Part shown: positions 649 through 51,477 of the stretch, one piece after another
Numbering within the stretch: the stretch's first letter is position 1
Layout: the number at the start of each line of letters is the position of its first letter
Sequence record: MK573636
DNA length: 64,000 nt
Direction: 5' to 3' (one strand)
Origin: Escherichia phage vB_EcoM_PHB13
Program-made: the position numbers and the translations under genes
The notes under the pieces: generated by a model
Databases searched by the model: none
Seen by the model: the letters and a program-made list of their open reading frames with translations, nothing else
What the model was told of the DNA's origin: nothing

Positions 649-683
649 TTGACATGATGAAACGGGAGTAGTAAGATACTCCC
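649..683 (+). promoter_or_regulatory. sigma70-like early promoter (TTGACA / TAAGAT) with inverted repeat GGGAGTA-gtaaga-TACTCCC in spacer/-10 (promoter-early stem-loop type)
   Basis: read directly; identical 27-nt core recurs near 44181 and 44462. Confidence 0.5.
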
Positions 684-708
684 ATTTAAACAACTAGAGG
701 ATTATATT

Positions 709-40270: not shown

Positions 40271-40597
40271 ATGGTTGATATGAAAGTTACTTGCGAAAGT
40301 GCACATGTTGAAGTTGAAAGTAGCCAATATTCATTGCGTCCGTCCGGTCGCGTTACTGTGACTATGGATGATGTTGATTTGGTTAATAATGTTAGTGTTG
40401 AAGATATCGTTAATGAGTATGATCATAGCGAACTGCTAGACGCAATTCCTGAACATGTTGTGATCCAGCACGTAGTAAGCAATAATGATCCATCGACTTT
40501 CATTAAAGAATACGGCGCTGATGAAATGCTCGATGAAATTGGCGAAAAGATTGTTATTGCATGGCTTGAAAACAACGGTTATACTGTAGAACAATAA
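40271..40597 (+). CDS. hypothetical highly acidic protein (about 23 D/E in 108 aa)
   Basis: ORF track; composition counted by eye. Confidence 0.45.
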   Translation: MVDMKVTCESAHVEVESSQYSLRPSGRVTVTMDDVDLVNNVSVEDIVNEYDHSELLDAIPEHVVIQHVVSNNDPSTFIKEYGADEMLDEIGEKIVIAWLENNGYTVEQ

Positions 40598-40938: not shown

Positions 40939-41301
40939 ATGCTAGGTCATTCTAAAATAGAAGATTGCTCATTCAGAGCAATGAAAGATGATTTTTCGGT
41001 CCTGTACGCGTCTATCCGAGAGTTGTTTGTAGATTTTAAGCAATTCAGAGAATACAAAGGCGTTAAGATGCGGGAGTGGGTATTCTGGCCTTTCTATATC
41101 ATTACTCTGTTTTCTATGGTATTTTGTTTTGTCGGGATCACTATCGCTAGTTTTGTCACTTGCGTTTTCCTGATTATCAGGTGTATCATGTTTGCTTTGA
41201 TTGCTGCCCCGTTTATTGTTTCAATCCTTCCGTTAAAATGGCTATTGGATTGGGCTGATAAATCTGATAAAGTAAAGAATGTGATTTGTAAGCGTGTATG
41301 A
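40939..41301 (+). CDS. hypothetical integral membrane protein (2-3 TM helices)
   Basis: ORF track; long hydrophobic stretches. Confidence 0.45.
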   Translation: MLGHSKIEDCSFRAMKDDFSVLYASIRELFVDFKQFREYKGVKMREWVFWPFYIITLFSMVFCFVGITIASFVTCVFLIIRCIMFALIAAPFIVSILPLKWLLDWADKSDKVKNVICKRV

Positions 41302-41308
41302 GGTGAAG

Positions 41309-42673
41309 ATGGATAAAATTAGTCAAATTGTAAACACATTTACTTACCGCAGCCTTGAAAGCATTGTACATAATGAAGCTAAGGAATATGCGATCTATTC
41401 TGCCGAGGAACGCGGGATTCCTCAATTAGTGGATGGGCTTAAACCAGTGCAACGCTTTGTTATGGAGTGCGCACTTCAAAAGAGTAAAGGCGACCGTAAG
41501 AAATTCCGTAAGATGGCAGATATTGGATCTGGTGTTGCTGAGTTGGGTTATCACCACGGGGAAACTAATGCCGTAGAAGCCGGATCACTCATGGCGAATA
41601 CATGGAGCAATAATACTCCACTGCTTGACGGTCAAGGTAACTTCGGATCGCGTTTAGTCCAGAAAGCAGGTGCGGCACGTTATATCTTTGCTCGTGTGCA
41701 TGAAAACTTCTTTAAAATCTATAAAGATATGAATTGCGCACCTAAGCACGAAGATCTGGAACACATCCCGCCAGCATTCTACTTGCCAGTTGTGCCAATG
41801 GTATTGGCTAATGGTATTAGTGGTATTGCTACAGGGTATAAAACTGACATTTTACCGCATTCACTGGAAAGCCTTATTGAATGCACAGAGCTAGCACTTG
41901 CCGGAAAACTGGATAAAGAACCTAGTGTTCAATTCCCAAAATTCACGGGTAAAGTTATCCCGCGAGATGATCGCGATGGTGTGATTCTTGAGGGTACATA
42001 TGAACTAAACGGCAAGACTAAACTGACAATATCAGAAGTTCCTTATAAGTTCGACCGTGAAGAATATGTGGCGGTACTGGATGCGCTGGAAGAAAAAGAT
42101 CTGATTGTATCGTATAATGACCGTTGCTCTAAGGACGGATTCAGATTTGAAGTAACACTGAAACGCGATTATTTCAAAAGCGAAGATGAATCCGCTCGAC
42201 ATGAGCAAATCATGAAGGATTTTAAACTAACGCAGTTAGTAGCCCAGAATATCGTGGTAGTTAATGAACGTGGCTTAGTTGAAGTATTCGAGAAAGCGAG
42301 CGATCTGATCCGTCGATTCGTCGAAATCCGATTAGGGTATGTCGATAAACGCATTGAATTGATGCAAGCGGAAACGCTGGAAGCATACAATTATGCAATG
42401 GCTAAAGCCAAATTTATCGACCTTGTAATTAAGGGCGAAATCGAGCTACAGGGAAAGAAAAAGGCCGAGGTAATGCAATCCATCAATGGACATGAAAAAC
42501 TGCGTCCATACGCCGATAAGCTAGTTTCTATGCCATTGTATAGCGTTACTCAAGAAGAGTATGATCGACTGGTCAAAGATGCCGAGAAACATCATAGTGA
42601 ATATGAGTATTGGACAAAGACGACCGCAATGAAGGAATATAAGAAAGATCTTAAAGAACTTAAGAAGGGTTGA
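41309..42673 (+). CDS. 52: DNA topoisomerase II medium subunit gp52 (GyrA-like)
   Basis: strong similarity to T4 gp52 (GLKPVQRFV, LLDGQGNFGSR, RYIFARV); start at ATG after SD GAGGTGA. Confidence 0.9.
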   Translation: MDKISQIVNTFTYRSLESIVHNEAKEYAIYSAEERGIPQLVDGLKPVQRFVMECALQKSKGDRKKFRKMADIGSGVAELGYHHGETNAVEAGSLMANTWSNNTPLLDGQGNFGSRLVQKAGAARYIFARVHENFFKIYKDMNCAPKHEDLEHIPPAFYLPVVPMVLANGISGIATGYKTDILPHSLESLIECTELALAGKLDKEPSVQFPKFTGKVIPRDDRDGVILEGTYELNGKTKLTISEVPYKFDREEYVAVLDALEEKDLIVSYNDRCSKDGFRFEVTLKRDYFKSEDESARHEQIMKDFKLTQLVAQNIVVVNERGLVEVFEKASDLIRRFVEIRLGYVDKRIELMQAETLEAYNYAMAKAKFIDLVIKGEIELQGKKKAEVMQSINGHEKLRPYADKLVSMPLYSVTQEEYDRLVKDAEKHHSEYEYWTKTTAMKEYKKDLKELKKG

Positions 42674-42873
42674 TTATGAAAGAATATCCAGAAGGCGGTT
42701 ATATTGCATTTCTGTACAACAATAAAAAGATTGTGCCAATTGTCGTTGAAACACTGGAAGAATCCAACCGGATCACCAGTGAATCTCTGAGCAAATTAGC
42801 AGAGATGACAAACACGCCAGAACACAGAGCAAAGATCGACAGCTTGATGAAAGAATTATCAGAGAGGAAATAA
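42670..42873 (+). CDS. hypothetical protein
   Basis: ORF track. Confidence 0.35.
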   Translation: MIMKEYPEGGYIAFLYNNKKIVPIVVETLEESNRITSESLSKLAEMTNTPEHRAKIDSLMKELSERK

Positions 42874-42876
42874 ATT

Positions 42877-43272
42877 ATGACTGAACGACGCATCACTTCA
42901 AATGGTTTGGGTACTCATCATGCATGGATGGTTGACCCAGACAAAAATCCTTATAAACTTTACGATACAACGATTAAACCGTGGAATAATGGCGTATGGA
43001 AAACACCACACACAACAGCACCTATTATGACTGATCCGAAACCGATTAGCCCGATGGCGGAACCAGTACAGATTAAGCCGTTACCTTACCAGATAACAAC
43101 GAATAGCATCGCCAACAAACAAGAAAATGATATTGATATGATCTACGAGATGATTAAACTTTGGCGTGATGTTTATCTGGGTGTTCTCTGCAACACAGAT
43201 AAAAGTGCACATGCGGCAGCGGTACTGGCATCTCATGCAGTAGACGAAGCCAAAAAGAAATTTAGTAAGTAA
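42877..43272 (+). CDS. hypothetical protein
   Basis: ORF track, 131 aa. Confidence 0.4.
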   Translation: MTERRITSNGLGTHHAWMVDPDKNPYKLYDTTIKPWNNGVWKTPHTTAPIMTDPKPISPMAEPVQIKPLPYQITTNSIANKQENDIDMIYEMIKLWRDVYLGVLCNTDKSAHAAAVLASHAVDEAKKKFSK

Positions 43273-43281
43273 CTGATTATT

Positions 43282-43310
43282 AAGCCGATCCTTGTGGTCG
43301 GCTTTTTTAT
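43282..43310 (+). terminator. intrinsic terminator AAGCCGATCC-ttgt-GGTCGGCTT plus T-run
   Basis: read directly; same hairpin inverted near 53208. Confidence 0.55.
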
Positions 43311-43322
43311 TTTAAAAAGTTG

Positions 43323-43351
43323 TTGACTTACAGAATCCAACATTGCATAAT
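43323..43351 (+). promoter_or_regulatory. sigma70-like promoter TTGACT-17bp-CATAAT
   Basis: read directly. Confidence 0.4.
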
Positions 43352-43382
43352 ACACCCATACCAAACAAAAGGAGAATCAAAG

Positions 43383-43655
43383 ATGTGCAACGAAAACAGC
43401 AAAGTGTTGGCAATTGCAGATAAAGTAGGTTACTGGAAATGCTGGGATGATATGGAGAAATTAGGCGGTCGCTATCTCGATAACTTAGAGTTGCATTATT
43501 GCCAAGCGCGTAATGCAGAAGTTGCGGGAGTAGCAATCGAAGATATTCCGTCTAAAGTCTTCGGATTCTCTAAAGATGATACTCTAGAGTATGTTTTTAA
43601 GGCTGTAATGGATCAAGCATGGGAAGACGCAGAGACACGCGCTCTTGATTGGTGA
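43383..43655 (+). CDS. hypothetical protein
   Basis: in-frame ATG within track ORF 43320..43655 after SD AGGAGAATCA. Confidence 0.4.
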   Translation: MCNENSKVLAIADKVGYWKCWDDMEKLGGRYLDNLELHYCQARNAEVAGVAIEDIPSKVFGFSKDDTLEYVFKAVMDQAWEDAETRALDW

Positions 43656-43659
43656 TAAT

Positions 43660-43878
43660 ATGAACTGGTATAAAATTTGGAAAAATCAGGTGGAGGCTTA
43701 TCTAGGGTATAAGCCCACCGACGAAGAATTACTCGATGCAATGTACGAAGACGGACTAAATCCGAAAGTAGCCGCGCGAGAATACGCGGAATGGATGAAG
43801 GTCGAAGATAACCTAGAGGCAACGAAAAATTTTCACGAAAATAATAAAAAAGCAGTTGACGCCAAAGGTCATCGATAG
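43660..43878 (+). CDS. hypothetical protein
   Basis: in-frame ATG within track ORF 43645..43878. Confidence 0.35.
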   Translation: MNWYKIWKNQVEAYLGYKPTDEELLDAMYEDGLNPKVAAREYAEWMKVEDNLEATKNFHENNKKAVDAKGHR

Positions 43879-43918
43879 TATTATACTCCCATACCGAAAC
43901 GAACTGGAGGAAATAAAA

Positions 43919-44161
43919 ATGGTTAAAGTTAATGTTATCGAAGTTGCACTGTACGACGCTGGAATCTTCCTGAATGAAAAAGAAGCTGCCGTGCTCGATG
44001 AACTGAAAACTGTTTTTGTTCCTGTAGTAGAAGACGTTGAAGCAATTAAAATCGCTTCTCGTAAACTGTCTCGCGAAGCATTCGACATGATTGATCCGGT
44101 TTTCAAAGTTATGCACGAATGCGCGGTTATGATGACCGAAGAAGAAGCGAAAAATTTCTAA
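43919..44161 (+). CDS. hypothetical acidic protein
   Basis: in-frame ATG within track ORF 43856..44161 after SD GGAGG. Confidence 0.4.
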   Translation: MVKVNVIEVALYDAGIFLNEKEAAVLDELKTVFVPVVEDVEAIKIASRKLSREAFDMIDPVFKVMHECAVMMTEEEAKNF

Positions 44162-44168
44162 AAACCAG

Positions 44169-44203
44169 TTGACGTAAAGAAACGGGAGTAGTAAGATACT
44201 CCC
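44169..44203 (+). promoter_or_regulatory. early promoter TTGACG with stem-loop GGGAGTA-gtaaga-TACTCCC (same core as 649..683)
   Basis: read directly. Confidence 0.5.
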
Positions 44204-44226
44204 ATACCAAACGAAAGGAGAATCAC

Positions 44227-44439
44227 ATGAAATCTATCGAGCAAGTAGTAACAGAGTTTATGAGCTACGAAGGAAACCGCATCTTTGGACGTTCTCAAGT
44301 TCGCGAGATCGTGGAAGAGGTCTCTGGAGAGTTTGCGGAATCTGGTCACGTTATCACGCAAGAACGTAAAGAAGAAGCAGTAAACCAGATCATGGCTATG
44401 CAGAAAATGCGTATTAATGCACGAGCGGGTAAAAATTAA
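44227..44439 (+). CDS. hypothetical protein
   Basis: ORF track, 70 aa. Confidence 0.4.
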   Translation: MKSIEQVVTEFMSYEGNRIFGRSQVREIVEEVSGEFAESGHVITQERKEEAVNQIMAMQKMRINARAGKN

Positions 44440-44446
44440 AAAGTAG

Positions 44447-44481
44447 TTGACACCGGATTAAGGGAGTAGTAAGATACTCCC
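44447..44481 (+). promoter_or_regulatory. early promoter TTGACA with stem-loop GGGAGTA-gtaaga-TACTCCC (third copy)
   Basis: read directly. Confidence 0.5.
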
Positions 44482-44508
44482 ATCAAGAAAAACATTGAGG
44501 AATATATT

Positions 44509-45309
44509 ATGAAAAACATTATCGCTGCGATCGTTCTTTCTACTACGGCTTTCGGTGCTAATGCTGCGTCCTTTGATTGCGCTAAAGCTACTACCAAACC
44601 AGAGAAGTTTATTTGTGCTAATGAGTCAATCTCCGCACTGGATTCTAAACTTAATGAAGTATATGTTAAGGCTGTTAAGATTGATCCATCTCTTAAACAA
44701 GAGCAACGCAACTGGAATAAAACTGTTCGTGATACAATGATCAACATCGGGCAAATACAGCCACTGGAGGCTGTATATAACGCTCAAATCCAAAACTTGA
44801 TGAACGTATTACCTAAAGAAGAAACAGCGTCAGAAAGCGATTCAGAGACTTCTGCGAAGGTTGAAGAAGAACAACCGAAACAAGAAGAAAAAGTGGTAGA
44901 GCAACCGAAGAAAGAAGAGAAAATCTATGGATCTATCACTTACCAGTGCATTGCAAAATTTACATGGAAAATCATTGATGGTATTGAGACAGACAGCCGC
45001 AAAGATCCATTGTATGGAAACTCTACTTATGGCAACAAGGGCGGAAAGCTGAAAATGACCATGACCGAAGGTGAATTGTCTTCTTTCGTATATGTTGATG
45101 AGCGCGAAGTGTTTAAATCAAATCTGACACGCAGCAAACAATATAAAAATATGGTTGTTGGTATGAGCAAACCGGATGTAGCAGGATACTTCAACGAGTA
45201 CAAAATGTGGGTAGGGGAAAACGATGAAATCCGCTTTGAAGTCATCGAGAAAGGTCGCATTAGCTATGATTATGGTACTCAATATGTTTGCGAATATAAG
45301 AAGGGTTAA
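44509..45309 (+). CDS. secreted/periplasmic protein with N-terminal signal peptide and DUF1311 (LprI lysozyme-inhibitor-like) domain
   Basis: signal peptide ...AFGANA/AS; motif FDCAKATTKPEKFICANESISALDSKLNEVY...EQRNW. Confidence 0.55.
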   Translation: MKNIIAAIVLSTTAFGANAASFDCAKATTKPEKFICANESISALDSKLNEVYVKAVKIDPSLKQEQRNWNKTVRDTMINIGQIQPLEAVYNAQIQNLMNVLPKEETASESDSETSAKVEEEQPKQEEKVVEQPKKEEKIYGSITYQCIAKFTWKIIDGIETDSRKDPLYGNSTYGNKGGKLKMTMTEGELSSFVYVDEREVFKSNLTRSKQYKNMVVGMSKPDVAGYFNEYKMWVGENDEIRFEVIEKGRISYDYGTQYVCEYKKG

Positions 45310-45591
45310 ATGATGAAATTTAACAACATGAAGTTTAAAAAAGATTGGTGGGATGCTATGAGAGCTAACGACCGGATCGGAATTGGAAAGGCAGAAAAGA
45401 CAGTTGTTATTGTCAAGTATAAAGCGACGCAAGATCTTTTGATTAAGGAACTCATTCGAGCGGGTAACTATCAAACACCGGAAGGTCTTATTGACATGAT
45501 GGTTGATAACATGTATAGTGACGAACCACCAAACATTAAACAATATTACAAGCAGTATTACCGAAAGTGGCAGAATTACAACCGAAAATAA
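45310..45591 (+). CDS. hypothetical protein
   Basis: ORF track. Confidence 0.35.
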   Translation: MMKFNNMKFKKDWWDAMRANDRIGIGKAEKTVVIVKYKATQDLLIKELIRAGNYQTPEGLIDMMVDNMYSDEPPNIKQYYKQYYRKWQNYNRK

Positions 45592-45614
45592 GTTGTTGAC
45601 GTGAGGATTATATT

Positions 45615-45806
45615 ATGGTAATTTTTAATCGCGATGGTATCATAGTTCGGCAACACCCATTCCTTGAATACTATCAGGTTGAACAATGGGGATATGGGGA
45701 TTGTTCTCGATCATACGGTCAAAGCTGGGGATACCGTACAGTTTTTGAATCAACCGATATTGACAAAGTACGACAGAAAGTTTTAGAACTTCTTAACGAT
45801 AAGTGA
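45615..45806 (+). CDS. hypothetical protein
   Basis: ORF track; SD GAGGATTATATT. Confidence 0.4.
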   Translation: MVIFNRDGIIVRQHPFLEYYQVEQWGYGDCSRSYGQSWGYRTVFESTDIDKVRQKVLELLNDK

Positions 45807-45816
45807 GGATTAAATC

Positions 45817-46185
45817 ATGGAAATTCAAAACAATTACGAAAAATGTGTTATTATCAATGATTTGCAACGTCAATTGCATCATTACGAAACCGATTATAAA
45901 ACAGCAACCAAAACCGGAAAGTTGAAAGTGTGGGAAGTCTGGTATAACCGAAACTATCTGGGAAGCATCCACAAACTTGATCGCAGTGATGTTTATACAA
46001 TGCATGTGGGCGCGTGTGGCGAATCGGATGTAGCATCTAATTTCATGGAAGCACTTGCATTCTATGTAGAATATCTGGTAGACTATATCGAGTTGGAAGA
46101 GGAAGTGGTAGAATTGCTTCCTCCACCGGAAGAAGCGCCGGAAGCAACGATCCTGAAAGCATTAAAGAAAATCTTTGTTAAGTGA
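45817..46185 (+). CDS. hypothetical protein
   Basis: ORF track. Confidence 0.4.
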   Translation: MEIQNNYEKCVIINDLQRQLHHYETDYKTATKTGKLKVWEVWYNRNYLGSIHKLDRSDVYTMHVGACGESDVASNFMEALAFYVEYLVDYIELEEEVVELLPPPEEAPEATILKALKKIFVK

Positions 46186-46193
46186 GGTGAACT

Positions 46194-46526
46194 ATGAAAA
46201 ATGTACTGATTGTGTGGGAACTGATTCCAGAAACTACTGAATTATACATGGTACAGGTTGATAATAAAGAATTTGAAATTCTGAAACGCGTCAACTGCAA
46301 ATATATTAACATTGATGACATGACCCCAGAAATGGACTATGTAAACTATGCTCTCATGCAGCCTAGTTGGATTATGGATGAAACTAAAGCCGACGCCGAA
46401 TCGCTGGGTGTACCGGAAGAAGTATTAGCGAAATGGCATCAATTCAAAGTTGAAATAAAAGAGGGCGAACCGTTTATTCCTAGTGGTATGATCGATGCGG
46501 TGATCGTAACAGGTTTTCATCTGTAA
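46194..46526 (+). CDS. hypothetical protein
   Basis: ORF track. Confidence 0.4.
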   Translation: MKNVLIVWELIPETTELYMVQVDNKEFEILKRVNCKYINIDDMTPEMDYVNYALMQPSWIMDETKADAESLGVPEEVLAKWHQFKVEIKEGEPFIPSGMIDAVIVTGFHL

Positions 46527-46538
46527 GGAGATTATACA

Positions 46539-46871
46539 ATGTTTAACTATGACAAATATGAATCATGGAAAGCGACCGAACTGAAAGAGGCAGCGCGGTT
46601 AATCACACCGCGTCTTTATCCGGTGTTGTTTAGCGCCGATAAAGTAACAAGGGAAGTAAACGAGGCGCTATCGGTTTTAGGCTATCTGATCGATAAAGTA
46701 GAGAAGACATCGGTATTCACAAATAGCGTAGAATATACCAGATATCGAGTGTTTTTAGATTCCTTGCTCGTTGTCATTAAAGCACTAAATGATCATAACT
46801 ACACCATGAACATGACGAAAATAATCGACGAAGCAAGAATTATGACAGAGAATATTTTCGGTAAATTTTGA
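46539..46871 (+). CDS. hypothetical protein, paralogue of 46980..47309 (shared C-terminus ...ENIFGKF)
   Basis: ORF track. Confidence 0.4.
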   Translation: MFNYDKYESWKATELKEAARLITPRLYPVLFSADKVTREVNEALSVLGYLIDKVEKTSVFTNSVEYTRYRVFLDSLLVVIKALNDHNYTMNMTKIIDEARIMTENIFGKF

Positions 46872-46979
46872 TTATGAAAGATGATGAATCATTGAAAATT
46901 GCACTGGTTATGCTATTACAAGGTATAGAATTAGCAAACCACGAAAAAATGTTGAAACAACAGCGTGAAATTATGAGAG

Positions 46980-47309
46980 GTGATTATGATCGAGTTTGAA
47001 ATTGACAACTTTCACGAAAAAGCAGAAGACCTAACCAAAATTTTGATTAGTCGAGGTGCATATAATACGAAAGATATTATAAAAGAAGTTAATGTAGCGA
47101 TGGACGCGATCCGAAAGGAATTTAAACATATTTCAGAGATTGGAGAAAATGGTCATCTTGAAGATGTTGAGCTGGTAGCACTGCGACGCTATTACTTCTT
47201 TGTTGATTGCATCATTGATCTATCTAAAAATTATAGTCATTACATGAAAGATATTGTAAAAGATGCACGTAAGCTGGCAGAGAATGTTTACGGGAAGTTT
47301 CCAGAATGA
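46980..47309 (+). CDS. hypothetical protein, paralogue of 46539..46871 (C-terminus ...ENVYGKF)
   Basis: ORF track. Confidence 0.4.
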   Translation: MIMIEFEIDNFHEKAEDLTKILISRGAYNTKDIIKEVNVAMDAIRKEFKHISEIGENGHLEDVELVALRRYYFFVDCIIDLSKNYSHYMKDIVKDARKLAENVYGKFPE

Positions 47310-47554
47310 AATTAGAACAAGCGATTGTATACTTTGAGATGGGCTATGATATTGCTCGTGTAGAGTGGGAAGATGGTGATTTTGTCCGATTGATTAATCT
47401 TCCAGAAACAGCTATTGCACTGGTCAAAGTAGAAAACGGTATACAACGAAATTACGCGTTCTCTGACGAAGACAAACAAGCCGATGACTGGTACGCTACA
47501 TGTTTTCATCATACAGCGTCAAAATGTGATTCAGGGGCTTCTATGCGCCAATAA
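47306..47554 (+). CDS. hypothetical protein, possible DUF2829/Tad2-like small protein
   Basis: N-terminal pattern L-x-QAI-x5-G-x2-IARVEW and C-terminal DKQADDW; motif-level only. Confidence 0.35.
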   Translation: MKLEQAIVYFEMGYDIARVEWEDGDFVRLINLPETAIALVKVENGIQRNYAFSDEDKQADDWYATCFHHTASKCDSGASMRQ

Positions 47555-47557
47555 AAA

Positions 47558-47584
47558 GAAGGGGAGGCCGAAAGGCTTCCCCTT
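47558..47584. terminator. bidirectional intrinsic terminator (hairpin AAGGGGAGGCC-gaaa-GGCTTCCCCTT, A-run upstream, T-run downstream) between convergent modules
   Basis: read directly. Confidence 0.6.
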
Positions 47585-47588
47585 TAAG

Positions 47589-48245
47589 TTATCTAATCCT
47601 TCCGAGGATTCTGGCAGATTGATTGCAAAGAGTATCTAAATTCTCAATGTCAATATCCGGTTTATTCTTCCATGAAATGGCGATACTACCAGAATAGACA
47701 TTATCGAGATTGAATATAGGACAAGAATACATGAAACCTATATCGATATTCTCTAATTTCTTTTCTCTTGATGGAATATACTGGAAATCTTTATCGGTAA
47801 AATATGATTTACCTAAAAGATGCCTACGATATTCTTCACTCGTTTTATTGATAGGGAATCCGCCTAAATTTTTTTCATCGATTGTGTGTGGTAGCTTTCC
47901 TTCATATGCCACCAAATCAACAAAATAGTTTAGGTTTTTCGGACGAAAACTAAAAACAGCAGAAAAATCGGCATCAGCCGACACATGAACTATCTGTAAC
48001 TGCTCCTGTGCTGCATTATCAAAATTGCGGTCTTTCTCTACCTGGAGAATGTGAGCATAAGTCTCATAACGAGTCTCTTTATAAAGCGCAAATAACTCGT
48101 TTTTACTATAAACGACAAATGCCAATATGGACAACACGACGGCAGCAAAAACACGAAGTACGAGCAACTCCGTGCTTTTAGTTGTGAAAATAGCGCGCAG
48201 GACATTTGAGATAGCAAAGTCTTTCCCTTTTTCAGAAACTTGCAT
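47589..48245 (-). CDS. t: holin
   Basis: 218 aa; strong similarity to T4 holin T (LEQLQIVHVSADADFSAVFSFRPKNLNYFVDLVAYEGKLP), one N-terminal TM. Confidence 0.85.
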   Translation of the reverse strand: MQVSEKGKDFAISNVLRAIFTTKSTELLVLRVFAAVVLSILAFVVYSKNELFALYKETRYETYAHILQVEKDRNFDNAAQEQLQIVHVSADADFSAVFSFRPKNLNYFVDLVAYEGKLPHTIDEKNLGGFPINKTSEEYRRHLLGKSYFTDKDFQYIPSREKKLENIDIGFMYSCPIFNLDNVYSGSIAISWKNKPDIDIENLDTLCNQSARILGRIR

Positions 48246-48278: not shown

Positions 48279-48518
48279 TTATTTAGGTAGTTGACTATCA
48301 CTAGGTTTATCTTGCTCGTTACTATCTTCTGACTGATCTTTATTAAACTCCTTATAAAGTTCTTCCACAAAACGATCATCAATTGGCGTATTGGTATAAG
48401 CCGCAAGACGACGAGCGCAATAGAAGAAAATTTTAGTGAGCATCTTTTCACTAATTAACTTTGACAATAATTTCATTCCGAAATTAGACAAAGCACCAAT
48501 GACGATATTATAGACCAT
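48279..48518 (-). CDS. hypothetical protein between gene 37 and holin (the T4 gp38 position; not gp38-like)
   Basis: ORF track; SD AAGGAGA. Confidence 0.4.
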   Translation of the reverse strand: MVYNIVIGALSNFGMKLLSKLISEKMLTKIFFYCARRLAAYTNTPIDDRFVEELYKEFNKDQSEDSNEQDKPSDSQLPK

Positions 48519-48558
48519 AGCCGTTTCTCCTTAGTAGTTCCCTTCCCTGGGATTTTCC

Positions 48559-51477
48559 TTAATTCTTTTTAAGTTCCGCTAGTTCAGCTTTAACGGCTTT
48601 CAATTCTTCGCTCATTTCCTGAAACGCCTTAATTAAAAGAGCGTTGACAGCAGAGTTAGAAATTGTTAAGATCTCTTCTGGTTTATCTGGATCGCCGATC
48701 TTAGAAGTTGTTACTGCTTCCGGCAATTCTTTTTCAAGATCCTGAGCAATAATACCAACTTCATGAGCGATAACAGTGCGGTCCGTCAAAGACTTAACCT
48801 TATCGTAGGTGTACACAGTCAAGCGATTAACTTTATCGGTGGCATTCTCCTTATACTCTTCCTTGTTGATTTTCAGACGAGCATCAGAACGAATATACAC
48901 ATCGTTAAACGAACCGTTACGTCCTGCCGACATGTCACCGGTGGCGCTAAAGTCAAAGTTGGCGTCATTAACGTTTAGGCGTGCTATAGCATTACCTATA
49001 GTGCCGCCAGGAACGTGTACACCCATTGCCGCAATATGATATTTTCCCCAATGAGTCGCTTTCCAGATGTTATGAGCGGAATCGGTTGATTGAGGACAGT
49101 CTACGAGGATTCCGGCAGAACGATCACGCCAGCTAGCCCAGCTACCACCAGCAACACTACCACGAATCAAACCTTTATCAGATCCGCCGACGCTACCAGA
49201 TTCCAACTGGATCATTTTATCTGCAAATTTCCACACCTGGGCTTGTTTCTGACCACGGAAGCGAATAACACCAGCATCATCGCAGTACATCAAGCCTAAC
49301 TCTAAACCGTTCGGATCTCTAAACCAGATGTGCTTATTGCCAGTACGACGAAAATCAATATCAGAACCGCCCAAAATAATATTACCGCCAGTGGTAATTG
49401 CTTGCGGCCTAAGAGTACCGTTGATGGCAAACTCGATTAATTCAGTACCCGGACCGCCAGGTCGGTGGGTATACCAATGCCACCCGCTTTCATCACCGCA
49501 TTCAAATATTTGTTTACGACTATCGTTACCCCATACACGTAGAGTAAACGTAGATGCGGCGGTCCCTTTACCCCATTTAATTTGACCAGCAGATTCCAAA
49601 TCACCGAAGAATTTAGTTTTAATCGCACCAGTTGATAAAGTACGTTCAGTGGTGAAGTGTGCACCCATGCTATCGTCAAGCTGTAAGATGTTATCACGCG
49701 CGTTATTGCTATCGCCCCAATGGTTAAACCGGAAGTAGTCGCGGGAATTTAATCGCCCAGCGTCGAAAGTCAAATGCCCTTTCTTAATGTAAACGTCATT
49801 ACTAAAGCGAGCGGCACGAGAAGCACGTTCTAACGTTAATGCTTCTTCGTTACCATCACCGCCTAATTGAACGTTACCGGAAGTTAAATCATAAATGAAT
49901 GGACGATAGCTATTCCATCCACCAAAACGATCATTTTCGGCAGTAGAAAGAAGATAAACTTTAGTGCCGTCATTACGCCAGAATGCACCGTAATTACCAA
50001 AGATCATACGGTATGCATTAGAGTTAGCGGAATAATATTGTCCGTTGGTATATACAATTTTTGTTTTTCCTACCGACAGCGTAACCTGACCAGTATCATC
50101 CAGTCTTAATGAGTTAGTACCTTCCGTTAATTCATTTACTAACTGTACGGTGTTAGTAGTAGCGTCACCATACCCTAGATAACCTTGACGGCGGTTAGCA
50201 CCGGAACGATAATCATAAAATTCTAGGTAATTACTTTGTCCGTCTCTACGCTCCATTCTGATAGCGTTATTTCCCTTAACGAAAAGACGATTTACAGTAA
50301 CCCCATTAAAATCAATTTTTAGTTGGTCTGACTGATCAGTAACGCCAGTAGCTAAACGATATACGCCACCCTCGACAACCTCATGCCATATTGTTTCTGC
50401 GGATTTGCTACGAAACTTACGAAGATATTTTTTATTGCTATCAGTCGAGTTATTCAAGCTGATAATATCATACGTTCCTTGACCGTTATTATCAAACATC
50501 AACGTTCCGGCTTTGTTTTCGGTGTTGAACATGGTAATAACACGAGCATCAAATTTAGTTCCGGTTTCTGGTTTAGTCGCCGAAAATTCAGGAACATCGT
50601 GAACAGTCAATGCAACATCAACAGTTTTTCCAAACTCTACAATAACGTTATCAGTGAAGCGACCATAGTTAACATAAATGTCATAGTTATCACCGGAAGT
50701 ATTAATTGCAAATACTTCATGGACGTTCAAAGAATTTCGACGATATGCAGCAATACTAACGCCTTTAGGGTTATTATTACCACTACGAATCACAATTTCA
50801 AGGAAATCCACCTGATCGTAGGAGTTAACATTAAATCCGTTCCCACCATAGATTCGCAGAAACGCCATCCGACCACTCTGCGGGATCATTGCGGATGCAA
50901 TTTTAAAATAACCACGGGTTGCTCCACCAGAAGGAGTAGACATTTTAACGTTCTTAACAAACATACGGTCAATTTCTTGTTTGCTATAGACGTTCAATTC
51001 TGAGGGAGTAGGTTTATCACCTTCGTGATACATGCGAAAGCTGAATCTCTTGTTACCATCCTTATCAAAGCCATAGGTTTTAACCTGAGAGGAACTAGAA
51101 CCATATTGAAATTCGAACCCGCGACCGTGTGCTTTACCGCTGGGATGAGGAATGTTCAGAATCAAGTTAGACCAATCATCAGCATTATTCGGTCGAAACG
51201 CACCAAAATAATTAAGATCTCGCGCGGTTTGGTCTTCAAAATAATTAGCGGTTTTACTTAAAATATAATTATTTCCTTTAACCTTACCCGCCATTGTAAC
51301 ATCGCTGTCATAAACCGGAGGACAACTTAAATTGATAATAGCACCGGAATCATTTTTAGTAAGAAGATATTGATCCGCAAGGTTGATTGCCAATTCCCCC
51401 GGATTCATCGTACTAGCATCCGGTCGACGACCTTTAGTGCTAGTGCGTTTAAATTGGATTCTGCTTAAATCTGCCAT
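48559..51477 (-). CDS. 37: long tail fibre distal subunit gp37 with C-terminal intramolecular chaperone-like domain
   Basis: N-terminus MADLSRIQFKRTSTKGRRPDAS...GELAINLAD resembles T4 gp37; C-terminal coiled-coil tail ...AVKAELAELKKN. Confidence 0.8.
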   Translation of the reverse strand: MADLSRIQFKRTSTKGRRPDASTMNPGELAINLADQYLLTKNDSGAIINLSCPPVYDSDVTMAGKVKGNNYILSKTANYFEDQTARDLNYFGAFRPNNADDWSNLILNIPHPSGKAHGRGFEFQYGSSSSQVKTYGFDKDGNKRFSFRMYHEGDKPTPSELNVYSKQEIDRMFVKNVKMSTPSGGATRGYFKIASAMIPQSGRMAFLRIYGGNGFNVNSYDQVDFLEIVIRSGNNNPKGVSIAAYRRNSLNVHEVFAINTSGDNYDIYVNYGRFTDNVIVEFGKTVDVALTVHDVPEFSATKPETGTKFDARVITMFNTENKAGTLMFDNNGQGTYDIISLNNSTDSNKKYLRKFRSKSAETIWHEVVEGGVYRLATGVTDQSDQLKIDFNGVTVNRLFVKGNNAIRMERRDGQSNYLEFYDYRSGANRRQGYLGYGDATTNTVQLVNELTEGTNSLRLDDTGQVTLSVGKTKIVYTNGQYYSANSNAYRMIFGNYGAFWRNDGTKVYLLSTAENDRFGGWNSYRPFIYDLTSGNVQLGGDGNEEALTLERASRAARFSNDVYIKKGHLTFDAGRLNSRDYFRFNHWGDSNNARDNILQLDDSMGAHFTTERTLSTGAIKTKFFGDLESAGQIKWGKGTAASTFTLRVWGNDSRKQIFECGDESGWHWYTHRPGGPGTELIEFAINGTLRPQAITTGGNIILGGSDIDFRRTGNKHIWFRDPNGLELGLMYCDDAGVIRFRGQKQAQVWKFADKMIQLESGSVGGSDKGLIRGSVAGGSWASWRDRSAGILVDCPQSTDSAHNIWKATHWGKYHIAAMGVHVPGGTIGNAIARLNVNDANFDFSATGDMSAGRNGSFNDVYIRSDARLKINKEEYKENATDKVNRLTVYTYDKVKSLTDRTVIAHEVGIIAQDLEKELPEAVTTSKIGDPDKPEEILTISNSAVNALLIKAFQEMSEELKAVKAELAELKKN

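What the first reader, a model, noticed from the sequence alone, without database searches (positions are those of the whole stretch)
42670..47554. Accessory island of 14 small ORFs between gene 52 and holin t, replacing the T4 motA/asiA/arn region
Where T4 carries motA, asiA and arn, this window has a string of small unknown genes driven by their own early promoters. It includes two acidic proteins, the DUF1311 periplasmic protein, a tandem paralogue pair and the Tad2-like ORF. This is the most likely place for undescribed anti-defence or host-takeover functions.
Basis: partly seen in the sequence, partly recalled or inferred. Interest (0 to 1): 0.6.

Follow-up and report, generated by a model that had tools for sequence, protein, structure and literature searches.

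The report
RB49-type phage early accessory gene block
This is the already-described variable block of small early genes that RB49-like (Krischvirus) coliphages carry between topoisomerase gene 52 and the holin gene; none of its 15 genes has a tested function, but one has the fold of a Thoeris-signal sponge (Tad2) and one is a periplasmic protein with a swappable end that is also carried by E. coli prophages.

Summary
The described ORFs are present at the given coordinates. The window is a Krischvirus (RB49-like T4-type coliphage), 97% identical to GEC-3S. Between gene 52 and holin t lie 15 plus-strand ORFs (14 without a 41-aa one).

The block is the published RB49/phi1 'hyperplastic region'. 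Four early promoter/stem-loop cassettes (PeSLs) drive O3-O4, O5, O6 and O7-O15. O1-O2 ride on the gene 52 transcript. Gene-content differences from relatives break at the PeSLs.

Only about 43.3-45.6 kb is variable. O9-O15 are 88-100% identical in the five relatives compared, apart from a second O14 allele in 15 records.

T4 carries asiA, arn and motA at this position. No homologue turned up anywhere in an RB49-type genome. But O10 is an arn.4 homologue, so the replacement is not complete.

Three ORFs link to known families:
- O15 is a short Tad2-like protein (Pfam above threshold; the seven best fold matches are all Tad2).
- O7 has a signal peptide, an invariant LprI/DUF1311 module and a hypervariable beta-barrel. 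It also ends a prophage in 26 of 5,426 E. coli genomes.
- O10 belongs to the Arn.4 family.

The other twelve have no family assignment. Anti-defence or exclusion roles are plausible but untested. I rate this a new member of a known kind, of modest interest.

The parts
41294..42673 (+). Gene 52 (topoisomerase II medium subunit); left flank
   Evidence: PF00521, E 1.3e-68. 99% aa identity to RB49 gp52 and 51% to T4 gp52.
42670..42873 (+). O1, 65-67 aa (ATG at 42676); no promoter of its own, abuts gene 52
   Evidence: phrog_15105, unknown function. 76-97% aa identity in 5 Krischvirus genomes; no homologue in L009.
42877..43272 (+). O2, 131 aa, pI 8.6
   Evidence: phrog_15644. 89-99% aa identity in Krischvirus. 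L009 has an unrelated 136-aa ORF here.
43282..43304 (+). Intrinsic terminator ending the gene 52-O1-O2 transcript
   Evidence: 9-bp stem followed by a T-run. GEC-3S annotates a terminator at the same place.
43310..43382 (+). PeSL cassette 1: A-rich tract, -35 TTGACT (43323), -10 CATAAT (43346), leader, SD
   Evidence: Promoter annotated in GEC-3S. Breakpoint against JK32 and L009 at 43350-43385.
43383..43655 (+). O3, 90 aa, acidic (pI 4.4)
   Evidence: phrog_7287. 97.8% aa identity in L009, whose core genes are only 83-85% identical, which points to recent horizontal exchange. 37-47% identical homologues in unrelated 44-52 kb phages of Citrobacter, Salmonella and E. coli.
43660..43878 (+). O4, 72 aa; chimeric ORF
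   Evidence: Residues 1-54 match the RB49 ORF265 type (phrog_8655). The tail matches the C-terminus of a small secreted protein of GEC-3S and L012. The window is 177 bp shorter than GEC-3S overall, consistent with a deletion at this junction.
43838..43918 (+). PeSL cassette 2 (-35 TTGACG at 43856, -10 TATTAT at 43879)
   Evidence: Promoter annotated in GEC-3S. Breakpoint at 43811-43819 against all relatives compared.
43919..44161 (+). O5, 80 aa, acidic; presence/absence cassette
   Evidence: No PHROG or Pfam match. Present in 31 phage records, all Krischvirus-type by name, about half of the roughly 60. Absent from RB49, Phi1, JSE, JK32 and L009.
44151..44226 (+). PeSL cassette 3 (-35 at 44169, -10 TAAGAT at 44192, inside stem-loop 44184-44203)
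   Evidence: Breakpoint at 44168.
44227..44439 (+). O6, 70 aa
   Evidence: phrog_14966. 96-99% aa identity in Krischvirus and 86% in L009.
44429..44508 (+). PeSL cassette 4 (-35 TTGACA at 44447, -10 at 44470, stem-loop 44462-44481); drives O7-O15
   Evidence: Breakpoint at 44429-44458. RB49 and JSE carry an extra 51-aa ORF263 cassette at this junction.
44509..45309 (+). O7, 266 aa: signal peptide, LprI/DUF1311 helical module, acidic linker, then a hypervariable C-terminal 8-stranded beta-barrel closed by two invariant Cys
45310..45591 (+). O8, 93 aa, basic (pI 9.6); variable
   Evidence: phrog_15915. 47-100% aa identity among Krischvirus and 40% in L009.
45615..45806 (+). O9, 63 aa
   Evidence: phrog_6957. 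95-98% aa identity in Krischvirus; absent from L009.
45817..46185 (+). O10, 122 aa; Arn.4 / T4 Y16F family
   Evidence: tblastn to the T4 arn.4 frame, E 3e-6. PF26821 is recorded on its homologues. The RB49 annotation says 'similar to T4 12.8 kD protein in AsiA-MotA region'. At least 99% identical in 52 of 59 records.
46194..46526 (+). O11, 110 aa, acidic (pI 4.4)
   Evidence: phrog_4658. 36-42% identical homologues in RB43, KP15 and Karamvirus-type phages. In RB43 the homologue lies about 1.4 kb from t.
46539..46871 (+). O12, 110 aa; paralogue A
   Evidence: phrog_9457, E 3e-43. blastp against O14 gives E 1e-6.
46874..46999 (+). O13, 41 aa, between the paralogues
   Evidence: phrog_17009. Annotated in RB49 and Phi1 as ORF256.1. 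88-100% aa identity.
46986..47309 (+). O14, 107 aa; paralogue B
   Evidence: phrog_9457, E 4e-56. Two alleles in the genus: about 98% identity in 43 records and about 52% in 15. L009 has a single copy of this family.
47306..47554 (+). O15, 82 aa, acidic; short Tad2-like (DUF2829) protein
   Evidence: PF11195, 28.1 bits against a cut-off of 25. AF2 pLDDT is about 80 over residues 1-66. The seven best Foldseek hits in the PDB are all Tad2, at TM 0.55-0.62. W21, Y50 and D56 align with the SPO1 ligand residues W25, W73 and D79.
47559..47584 (.). Hairpin between the convergent O15 and t genes (bidirectional terminator)
   Evidence: Sequence AAGGGGAGGCC-GAAA-GGCTTCCCCTT. Annotated as a terminator on both strands in GEC-3S.
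47589..48245 (-). Holin t; right flank
   Evidence: PF11031, E 4.5e-61. 100% aa identity to RB49 t and 49% to T4 t.

Best explanation
The block is the Krischvirus version of the T4-type 'hyperplastic region' between gene 52 and t. It is a string of probably dispensable early genes, organised and reshuffled by PeSL cassettes.

How it works:

(a) Shown by sequence plus published experiments on the same cassette type. Right after infection, host sigma-70 RNA polymerase starts at four PeSL promoters, upstream of O3, O5, O6 and O7. O1-O2 are read through from gene 52 up to the terminator at 43282. The PeSL stem-loops and the O15/t hairpin insulate the units from each other and from the late, convergent t gene.

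(b) Shown by comparison. Recombination between the roughly 70-nt PeSL repeats inserts, deletes and swaps one- or two-gene cassettes. This is why 43.3-45.6 kb differs from strain to strain, while O9-O15 travel as a fixed operon tail.

(c) Inferred. The products act on the host or on competitors rather than on virion building.
- O15 is a small oligomeric sponge of the Tad2 family. It would sequester a TIR-type (Thoeris) or related nucleotide immune signal in the pocket formed by the W21 loop and the Y50-S53-D56 segment. My probability is about 0.55.
- O7 is exported by Sec and disulfide-bonded in the periplasm. It would use its constant DUF1311 module and swappable beta-barrel to bind a peptidoglycan hydrolase or another incoming component. 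That would make it a superinfection-exclusion or lysis-protection factor analogous to T4 Spackle, which this phage lacks. My probability is about 0.3.
- O10 shares the unknown role of T4 Arn.4.
- The other twelve ORFs remain unassigned.
For: Identity of the region:
- 97% nucleotide identity to GEC-3S, and a match in 62 records that are Krischvirus-type by name.
- The same gene order holds in RB49, Phi1, JSE and JK32.

PeSLs:
- The four cassettes share an A-rich tract, GTTGAC, a 17-nt spacer, a -10 inside a GGGAGTAG...TACTCCC hairpin, an ATACCAAAC leader and an SD.
- The 22-nt core occurs 3 times in the window against 0 in shuffles.
- This anatomy matches the published description. Promoter and terminator activity were measured there for other PeSLs (PMC2839356).
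- Every indel breakpoint against six relatives falls on a PeSL or inside the O7 C-terminal domain.
- O5 is present in only 31 records, about half of the roughly 60.
- Alternative cassettes sit at the same junctions in relatives.

Fast evolution and transfer:
- Against L009, the core genes are 83-85% identical, O10, O11, the single O12/O14-type ORF and O15 are 43-57%, and O3 is 97.8%.

O15:
- Pfam match above the gathering score.
- The seven best fold hits are all Tad2 at probability 1.0, and the next hit has E 0.8.
- The secondary-structure order a1-b1-b2-b3-b4-a3-b5 matches the published Tad2 topology.
- W21, Y50, E55 and D56 are invariant in its clade.

O7:
- PF07007 match.
- Constant N-terminus and variable C-terminus with two invariant Cys.
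- A confident 8-stranded barrel.
- DUF1311 proteins act as periplasmic immunity proteins against lysozyme-like T6SS effectors (PMC12135965 and PMC12981562).
- M. tuberculosis LprI combines DUF1311 with an MliC barrel (PMC7933661).
- The gene sits in the moron position at the end of a hicB-integrated prophage.
- No sp or imm homologue was detected in an RB49-type genome.
Against: - No ORF of the block has been tested experimentally in any relative. I found no paper linking RB49 or Krischvirus to Tad2 or Thoeris.
- O15 lacks the roughly 23-residue b2-b3 loop with helix a2. That element forms the V-shaped dimer in both solved Tad2 proteins.
- O15 has E22 where SPO1 Tad2 has the phosphate-contacting N26, and E55 where SPO1 has T78.
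- The O15 model rests on only 5 sequences. A sequence profile of its clade finds no Tad2 chain in the PDB.
- No O7 C-domain variant hits the MliC Pfam model.
- The DUF1311 part of O7 is truncated (model positions 1-71 of 106, two Cys instead of four) and was modelled with low confidence.
- Salmonella ScwA, a protein with only a DUF1311 domain, did not inhibit lysozyme.
- The promoters are assigned by motif and by analogy, not measured for these four copies.
Confidence: 0.7

Rival explanations
1. The block is mainly a host-takeover module, a functional substitute for AsiA/MotA, rather than an anti-defence set. One or more of the small acidic or helical proteins (O3, O11, O12/O14) would remodel host RNA polymerase or shut off host transcription.
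For: It occupies the position of asiA and motA in T4. The RB49-type genome has no detectable asiA or motA. No middle promoters or motA were found in RB49 (PMC1524935). O11 is conserved in other T4-type genera, including RB43, KP15 and Karamvirus-type phages. O10-O15 are fixed across the genus.
Against: No ORF matches the AsiA or MotA Pfam models at E up to 0.1, nor T4 AsiA or MotA by tblastn. The only family links found point to a periplasmic protein and a signal sponge. Conserved genes that have diverged to 43-57% identity while core genes stay at 83-85% fit conflict genes better than polymerase-binding factors.
Confidence: 0.15
2. Most of the ORFs are nearly neutral passengers of PeSL-mediated shuffling, with no significant function. 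The Tad2-like and LprI-like matches would be decayed or co-opted domains.
For: Twelve of the 15 ORFs have no family assignment in Pfam, NCBIfam or PADLOC, and their PHROG families are all 'unknown function'. O4 is a deletion chimera. O5 is absent from half the genus. PeSL mini-circles can spread cassettes regardless of benefit.
Against: The ORFs are intact, mostly with an SD. Most are 88-100% identical in aa across the Krischvirus genomes compared. O3, O7 and O11 have homologues far outside the genus. The residues that align with the Tad2 pocket are invariant in the O15 clade.
Confidence: 0.1
3. O7 is not an exclusion factor. It would be a lysis-timing or cell-wall regulator for the phage's own lysis, for example by modulating host lytic transglycosylases as Salmonella ScwA does, or by acting with the nearby holin.
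For: It lies 2.3 kb from t and is periplasmic. ScwA, a DUF1311 periplasmic protein, raises MltD levels and causes lysis when overproduced.
Against: It is driven by an early sigma-70 cassette, not a late promoter. A hypervariable C-terminal domain, and carriage as the terminal gene of a prophage, fit a conflict molecule better than a housekeeping lysis regulator.
Confidence: 0.15

Closest known systems
Hyperplastic regions with PeSL (promoter-early stem-loop) cassettes of RB49 and phi1 (Arbiol et al. 2010, PMC2839356; Comeau et al. 2014, PMC4122927)
   Same: Same genus and same locus: RB49 ORF255-268, and phi1 ORFan263.1 lies here. Same cassette anatomy: A-rich tract, sigma-70 promoter, stem-loop over the -10, SD and ATG. 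Gene-content differences sit at the cassettes.
   Different: Nothing of kind. This window has its own combination: O5 present, ORF263 and ORF263.1 absent, an O4 fusion, and the phi1/GEC-3S type of O7 C-terminal domain.
The T4 interval t-asiA-asiA.1-arn-arn.1-4-motA-motA.1-52
   Same: Same flanks and orientation logic: early or middle genes converging on t. One shared gene family (O10 and arn.4). Both hold small proteins that act on the host, such as Arn (anti-McrBC) and AsiA (anti-sigma) in T4.
   Different: No asiA, motA, arn or arn.1-3 homologues were found in the window or in an RB49-type genome. Expression is from early sigma-70 cassettes rather than MotA-dependent middle promoters.
Tad2 (DUF2829) anti-Thoeris sponges: SPO1 gp34.65 (PDB 8SME/8SMF) and the Myroides prophage Tad2 (8V3E)
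   Same: Pfam family, fold and strand order. The N-terminal helix with the G-x-x-(I/V)-x-R-x-x-W motif and the C-terminal (S/T)-x-E-D...DW motif are shared. An aromatic residue and an aspartate sit at the pocket positions.
   Different: 18% identity. O15 lacks the b2-b3 loop and helix a2 that build the dimer and the second pocket. It has N26->E, W73->Y and T78->E. Its clade is tiny: four clusters among 1.8 billion representatives. Binding is untested.
M. tuberculosis LprI (DUF1311 + MliC), DUF1311 immunity proteins of T6SS lysozyme-like effectors, and T4 Spackle
   Same: O7 is exported, Cys-containing and built as a DUF1311 helical module followed by a disulfide-closed 8-stranded barrel. That is the same two-part layout as LprI. 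Like Spackle, it is an early periplasmic protein of a T4-type phage.
   Different: It is not a lipoprotein. DUF1311 is truncated. The barrel is not detectably MliC. There is no sequence relation to Spackle. The C-terminal domain is polymorphic. No activity is known.
Prophage 'moron' or superinfection-exclusion genes at prophage ends
   Same: In E. coli H2 the O7 homologue is the last gene of a roughly 35 kb hicB-integrated prophage, next to the attachment site.
   Different: In this window the gene sits in a virulent phage under an early promoter.

Membership tests
PeSL cassette / hyperplastic region of RB49-type phages | AT-rich tract, sigma-70 -35/-10 with 17-nt spacer, stem-loop near or over the -10, SD and ATG of the downstream ORF | tested here: met
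   Four copies were aligned. Hexamers scored 9-10 of 12. The hairpin GGGAGTAG-TAAGA-TACTCCC is identical in three copies in the window.
PeSL cassette / hyperplastic region of RB49-type phages | Cassettes mark the insertion, deletion and replacement points between related genomes | tested here: met
   Breakpoints against RB49, Phi1, JSE, JK32, GEC-3S and L009 lie at 43350-43385, 43811-43819, 44168 and 44429-44458.
PeSL cassette / hyperplastic region of RB49-type phages | Promoter and terminator activity in vivo | not testable with these tools
   Measured by Arbiol et al. for other PeSLs, not for these four.
Tad2 / DUF2829 (PF11195) | Pfam match above the gathering score | tested here: met
   28.1 bits against a cut-off of 25. 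Protein residues 1-63 align to model positions 1-71 of 73. The precomputed PF11195 is also recorded on P0001, P0025 and P0026.
Tad2 / DUF2829 (PF11195) | Fold: a1 followed by an antiparallel b1-b5 sheet, with a3 before b5 | tested here: met
   The model has H3-11, E14-19, E26-32, E36-43, E46-50, H54-58 and E63-67. The top 7 Foldseek hits are Tad2 structures, probability 1.0, TM 0.55-0.62.
Tad2 / DUF2829 (PF11195) | Extended b2-b3 loop with helix a2 forming the V-shaped dimer and hence the tetramer | tested here: not met
   Only 3 residues separate b2 and b3 in O15. About 23 residues are missing relative to SPO1 Tad2. The element is present in both solved Tad2 proteins. The oligomeric state itself is not testable here.
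Tad2 / DUF2829 (PF11195) | Ligand-contact residues of SPO1 Tad2 (W25, N26, W73, D79; also S76 and T78) | tested here: inconclusive
   W25=W21 and N26=E22 come from hhalign. W73=Y50, S76=S53, T78=E55 and D79=D56 come from my gapless motif alignment of the sequences. That gives three conserved or similar positions and two changed to Glu.
Tad2 / DUF2829 (PF11195) | Binds and sequesters a TIR-derived or other nucleotide immune signal, and rescues phage from the defence system | not testable with these tools
   No data for any Krischvirus protein turned up in the library.
LprI / DUF1311 (PF07007) | Pfam match above the gathering score | tested here: met
   29.6 bits against a cut-off of 22, E 9e-7. 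Only model positions 1-71 of 106 are covered.
LprI / DUF1311 (PF07007) | Exported protein with four conserved Cys within the domain | tested here: inconclusive
   A signal peptide (MKNIIAAIVLSTTAFGANA/AS) is read by eye. The DUF1311 part has only two Cys (C24, C36). Two further invariant Cys (C147, C261) belong to the barrel.
MliC/PliC lysozyme inhibitors (PF09864) | Pfam match or family motifs | tested here: not met
   No MliC hit at E up to 10 for five C-domain variants, nor for full-length O7.
MliC/PliC lysozyme inhibitors (PF09864) | Eight-stranded beta-barrel fold | tested here: inconclusive
Arn.4 / Phage_T4_Y16F (PF26821) | Sequence homology to T4 arn.4 and the same map position | tested here: met
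   tblastn of O10 against the T4 arn.4 frame gives E 3e-6 and, in the reverse direction, E 6e-5. PF26821 is recorded on the 100%- and 57%-identical homologues. The RB49 annotation agrees. PF26821 gave no hit in the local Pfam scan, probably because the model is newer than the local copy.
AsiA / MotA / Arn (T4 genes at this position) | Any homologue in the block or in the genome | tested here: not met
   No Pfam hit at E up to 0.1. There is no significant tblastn hit in the window or in the RB49-type genome OZ035808. The best is arn at E 0.016-0.59, which I judge spurious.

The most novel reading that the evidence does not exclude
O7 would represent an undescribed class of modular periplasmic exclusion proteins. 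A constant DUF1311 'handle' is fused to an interchangeable disulfide-closed beta-barrel. The barrel type would decide which incoming peptidoglycan hydrolase (phage tail lysozyme or T6SS effector) or other periplasmic invader component is neutralised. The same module would be traded, at 92-95% nucleotide identity, between virulent Krischvirus phages (as an early gene, standing in for the missing T4 sp and imm) and temperate hicB-integrating E. coli prophages (as a moron). In parallel, the loop-less O15 could be a minimal Tad2 with a ligand other than gcADPR.
Probability: 0.25. Interest if true: 0.6.

Novelty: new member of a known kind. Interest (0 to 1): 0.35.

Why it matters
If the inferred functions hold, three things follow.

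- RB49-type phages, including therapy candidates such as phi1 and GEC-3S, would carry a genus-wide counter to TIR/Thoeris-type signalling.
- They would also carry a strain-variable periplasmic exclusion factor. Both would affect host range and the design of phage cocktails.
- The block would be a compact, naturally cassette-organised test bed. It holds 15 small genes, and five alternative cassettes are seen at the same junctions in relatives, so anti-defence screens could use it directly.

As it stands, the finding mostly restates a published hyperplastic region whose genes are still uncharacterised.

Tried and rejected
- **Family scans.** Pfam, PHROGs, NCBIfam and PADLOC were run on the ORFs. 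Only LprI (O7) and Tad2-like (O15) pass. All PHROG families are 'unknown function'. The remaining sub-threshold hits (GlutR_dimer, DUF7639, LAMB4, SMC, Cmr1) I treat as noise.
- **PDB sequence searches.** O15 alone, the O15 clade profile, O7, O3, O10, O11 and the O12/O14 profile gave nothing at E below 0.1.
- **Deep homologue searches for O15.** They returned only four small-protein clusters. The long repeat proteins also returned include one I inspected, which is an FN3-type repeat with a chance 'RVxWxDG' strand; I dismissed them all as chance matches.
- **MliC membership of the O7 barrel.** Rejected at sequence level. It remains only fold-compatible. The BFVD fold search added nothing beyond the RB49 orthologue. 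The afdb50 library was unavailable.
- **A Spackle homologue in RB49.** The single weak hit (E 0.05) lies inside the gene 41 helicase and is spurious.
- **A hidden AsiA, MotA or Arn in the block.** Rejected.
- **RNA genes.** No tRNA was found, and no Rfam family reached threshold. A sub-threshold S15-leader hit at 40340-40432 lies inside an ORF outside the block.
- **Composition.** GC is 0.33-0.43, as in the flanks, so there is no sign of foreign origin.
- **Antisense ORFs.** Those at 43613-44116, 44436-44747 and 45118-45543 on the minus strand are not annotated in any relative and overlap conserved plus-strand genes. I treat them as spurious.
- **Untouched ORFs.** Structure predictions were capped at two, so O1-O6 and O8-O14 were not modelled.

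Full report
**What the window is.** The 4,885-nt region matches 62 phage records. All are Krischvirus-type by name (RB49-like T4-type myoviruses of E. coli and Shigella). Identity is 94-98%, and the best match is GEC-3S at 97.4% over 100% of the query. Gene 52 (41294-42673, PF00521) and holin t (47589-48245, minus strand, PF11031) flank it. GC content (0.33-0.43) and positive GC skew are the same as in the flanks.

**Checking the observation.** I count 15 plus-strand ORFs, O1 to O15, with coordinates in the parts list. The count is 14 if the 41-aa O13 is ignored.
- Most have a GAGG-type ribosome-binding site.
- All lie in the same order in GEC-3S, RB49, Phi1, JSE and JK32, where every one is annotated 'hypothetical protein'.
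- The DUF1311/LprI domain (O7), the Tad2-like domain (O15) and the paralogue pair (O12/O14, both phrog_9457) are all there.
- Acidic proteins number four or five rather than two.
- In T4 the same interval holds asiA, asiA.1, arn, arn.1-4, motA and motA.1. None of asiA, motA, arn or arn.1-3 has a homologue in the window or in an RB49-type genome (OZ035808). This agrees with earlier reports that RB49 lacks motA and middle promoters (PMC1524935).
- The replacement is not total. O10 is homologous to the T4 arn.4 frame (E 3e-6). Its homologues carry Pfam PF26821 'Phage_T4_Y16F', and the RB49 record already says so.

**Transcription units and the repeated cassettes.** After O2 comes an intrinsic terminator (43282-43304). 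Four intergenic cassettes of about 70 nt follow, upstream of O3, O5, O6 and O7.
- Each cassette has an A-rich tract, GTTGAC, a 17-nt spacer, a -10 hexamer lying in or next to a hairpin, a conserved leader, an SD and an ATG.
- The hairpin GGGAGTAG-TAAGA-TACTCCC is identical in two of the four and in one more copy at window 664-685. The 22-mer core has 3 matches against 0 expected.
- GEC-3S annotates promoters at exactly these four places.
- This is the PeSL (promoter-early stem-loop) described for RB49 and phi1. Its promoter and terminator activities were measured for other copies, and it was shown to mediate cassette shuffling and mini-circle formation in the 'hyperplastic regions' of these genomes (PMC2839356).
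- The generic promoter scan by itself is not enriched. The evidence is therefore the shared cassette, not the hexamers.
- O7 to O15 follow PeSL4 with gaps of 0-23 nt or short overlaps, and end at a hairpin shared with the convergent t gene (47559-47584).

**Which part is variable.** I aligned the window with six relatives.
- Every change of gene content starts or ends at a PeSL (43350-43385, 43811-43819, 44168, 44429-44458) or inside the 3' half of O7 (44910-45279).
- O5 is present in 31 records, all Krischvirus-type by name, about half of the roughly 60.
- Relatives carry other cassettes at the same junctions: RB49 ORF263, phi1 ORF263.1, a 68-aa ORF in JK32, and a small secreted protein in GEC-3S.
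- O4 in this window is a chimera. It joins the ORF265-type N-terminus to the tail of that secreted protein.
- O8 ranges from 47 to 100% identity.
- By contrast, O1-O3, O6 and O9-O15 are mostly 88-100% identical in the five relatives compared; O1 drops to 76% in JK32.
- O10, O11 and O15 are at least 95% identical in all of the roughly 58 records that carry them.
- O14 has a second allele at about 52% identity in 15 records.

'Accessory island' therefore describes about 43.3-45.6 kb. The right-hand 2 kb is a fixed feature of the genus.

**A more distant relative.** A 9.4-kb metagenome contig (L009) has gp52 at 83% and holin at 85% aa identity. Within the block the picture is mixed:

| ORF | aa identity in L009 |
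|---|---|
| O10 | 57% |
| O11 | 52% |
| O15 | 49% |
| single O12/O14-type ORF | 43% |
| O6 | 86% |
| O3 | 97.8% |
| O4 | 95% |

. The fixed genes thus evolve much faster than the core genes. The O3-O4 cassette has been exchanged recently between diverged phages.

Two ORFs reach beyond the genus. O3 has 37-47% identical homologues in unrelated 44-52 kb phages of Citrobacter, Salmonella and E. coli. O11 has 36-42% identical homologues in RB43, KP15 and Karamvirus-type phages, and in RB43 the homologue lies near t.

**O15, the Tad2-like ORF.**
- *Family match.* The Pfam match is just above threshold and covers the whole domain.
- *Clade size.* The clade is tiny: four clusters among 1.8 billion representative proteins. 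Neither O15 nor a profile of its clade finds a PDB chain by sequence.
- *Fold.* An AlphaFold2 model has pLDDT about 80 over residues 1-66, from five sequences. Its order a1-b1-b2-b3-b4-a3-b5 matches the published Tad2 topology. The seven best Foldseek matches in the PDB are all Tad2: SPO1 apo and gcADPR complexes, and the Myroides prophage Tad2. They have probability 1.0, TM 0.55-0.62 and 18% identity. The next hit has E 0.8.
- *Ligand residues.* I recovered the SPO1 Tad2 sequence (gp34.65) from its genome using the published residue numbers. hhalign places W21 on W25 and E22 on N26. A gapless alignment of the C-terminal halves places Y50, S53, E55 and D56 on W73, S76, T78 and D79. W21, Y50, E55 and D56 are invariant in the clade.
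- *Differences.* O15 lacks the roughly 23-residue b2-b3 loop with helix a2, which forms the V-shaped dimer in both solved Tad2 proteins. Two polar contacts are replaced by Glu.
- *Context.* Tad2 relatives are already known to differ in ligand: gcADPR, His-ADPR, cUMP/cCMP and N7-cADPR.
- *Conclusion.* I file O15 as a short member of the DUF2829/Tad2 family. It probably acts as a sponge, but its ligand and oligomeric state are open.
- *Literature.* I found no paper linking RB49 or Krischvirus to Tad2 or Thoeris.
- *RB43.* ORF285, the next-but-one gene to t in RB43, gives a sub-threshold but full-length Tad2-like match (E 0.048). The position may therefore be conserved.

**O7, the LprI-like protein.**
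- *Layout.* It starts with a typical Sec signal peptide (read by eye). A DUF1311 match covering two thirds of the model follows, then an acidic Lys/Glu linker and a C-terminal domain of about 125 aa.
- *Constant N, variable C.* Among 21 homologue clusters the first 105 residues are almost invariant. The C-terminal domain diverges and falls into several sequence types. It keeps one Cys in its first strand and one in its last.
- *Structure.* AlphaFold2 models the C-terminal domain as an eight-stranded barrel (pLDDT 85-88). The N-terminal part is poorly predicted.
- *Literature.* M. tuberculosis LprI combines DUF1311 with an MliC barrel, and the barrel carries the inhibition. The DUF1311-only Salmonella protein ScwA does not inhibit lysozyme but raises MltD levels (PMC7933661). 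DUF1311 proteins serve as periplasmic immunity proteins against lysozyme-like T6SS effectors.
- *E. coli copies.* Of 5,426 complete E. coli genomes, 26 carry a chromosomal gene whose first 370-420 nt are 92-95% identical in nucleotides to O7. In strain H2 it is the last gene of a roughly 35-kb prophage inserted into hicB. The prophage has a serine recombinase, terminase, portal, capsid and tail genes.
- *Missing T4 exclusion genes.* The RB49-type genome has no detectable sp or imm. The one weak sp hit lies inside gene 41.
- *Conclusion.* I read O7 as a conflict protein of the periplasm. The best guess is a Spackle-like blocker of an incoming peptidoglycan hydrolase, with the barrel setting specificity. 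I put this at about 0.3, because no defining feature of a lysozyme inhibitor was met.

**The remaining ORFs.** O1, O2, O5, O6, O8, O9, O12, O13 and O14 have no Pfam, NCBIfam or PADLOC assignment and no PDB relative by sequence. Apart from O5, which has no PHROG match, their PHROG families are of unknown function. The functions of T4 arn.1-4 were still unknown in a June 2026 preprint. I could not model these ORFs because only two structure predictions were allowed.

**Verdict.** But the block is the published RB49-type hyperplastic region. It is present in every sequenced member of the genus, and two thirds of it is fixed. An anti-defence or exclusion role is plausible for O15 and O7 and unknown for the rest. 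Nothing here is a new kind of system. The two points worth an experiment are the loop-less Tad2-like protein and the modular periplasmic protein shared with hicB prophages.

Noticed in passing
window 44509-45309; L021 (E. coli H2, NZ_CP028733.1 2523565-2559160); L007, L013, L014: 26 of 5,426 complete E. coli genomes carry a chromosomal O7 homologue whose N-terminal 370-420 nt are 92-95% identical in nucleotides to the phage gene. In strain H2 it is the last gene of a roughly 35-kb prophage integrated into hicB. This implies recent gene flow between a virulent T4-type phage and a temperate phage.
   Followed up: partly
L016-L019 (Krischvirus RB49 assembly OZ035808): tblastn with T4 proteins finds no significant homologue of sp, imm, asiA, motA, arn, arn.1-3, ndd, denB, ac, 61.2 or beta-glucosyltransferase, and only a weak (E 0.012) hit for gene 42. 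dmd, 61 and t are found. The one weak sp hit lies inside the gene 41 helicase.
   Followed up: partly
window 43660-43878: O4 is a chimeric ORF. Its first 54 aa match the RB49 ORF265 type. Its tail matches the C-terminus of a small signal-peptide protein (MKKMIAIALLASAC...) that GEC-3S and a gut-metagenome Krischvirus carry as a separate gene. The window is 177 bp shorter than GEC-3S overall.
   Followed up: partly
L009:3768-4040 versus window 43383-43655: O3 is 97.8% identical in a relative whose gp52 and holin are only 83-85% identical. This indicates recent horizontal exchange of a PeSL-flanked cassette. O3 also has 37-47% identical homologues in unrelated 44-52 kb phages of Citrobacter, Salmonella and E. 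coli.
   Followed up: partly
window 46986-47309: O14 exists as two alleles within the genus: about 98% identity in 43 records and about 52% in 15 (for example Skers, pEJ01, SSG23, AV108). The neighbouring O15 is at least 95% identical in all 58 records.
   Followed up: no
L020:2721-3008 (RB43 ORF285) and L020:3008-3211 (ORF284): The two small ORFs next to holin t in RB43 have Tad2-like N-terminal motifs, and ORF285 also has a Tad2-like C-terminal motif (...ATDWDIV). ORF285 gives a full-length but sub-threshold PF11195 match (E 0.048). A Tad2-like gene beside t may therefore be positionally conserved in RB43 as well.
   Followed up: partly
window 45491-45519: The best sigma-70 consensus match in the region (TTGACA, 17 nt, TATAGT; 11 of 12) lies inside the 3' end of O8, about 95 nt upstream of O9. 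It could be an internal promoter of the O7-O15 unit.
   Followed up: no
window 664-685: Another exact copy of the 22-nt PeSL hairpin core (GGGAGTAGTAAGATACTCCCAT) lies far from the block, with the same promoter, SD and ATG layout. This marks a further PeSL-driven early gene in the window.
   Followed up: no
window 48279-51477 (minus strand); L009:8170-8967: Downstream of t the window has a 79-aa Dc5-like ORF and then the gp37-type distal tail fibre, with no gp38. The diverged relative L009 carries a GP38-family (PF05268) adhesin gene instead, so receptor-binding modules differ between otherwise syntenic relatives.
   Followed up: no
window 40340-40432: A sub-threshold Rfam match to the ribosomal S15 leader (25.5 bits against a gathering score of 39.5, E 0.013) lies inside a conserved 108-aa ORF upstream of gene 52. 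It is probably chance.
   Followed up: no
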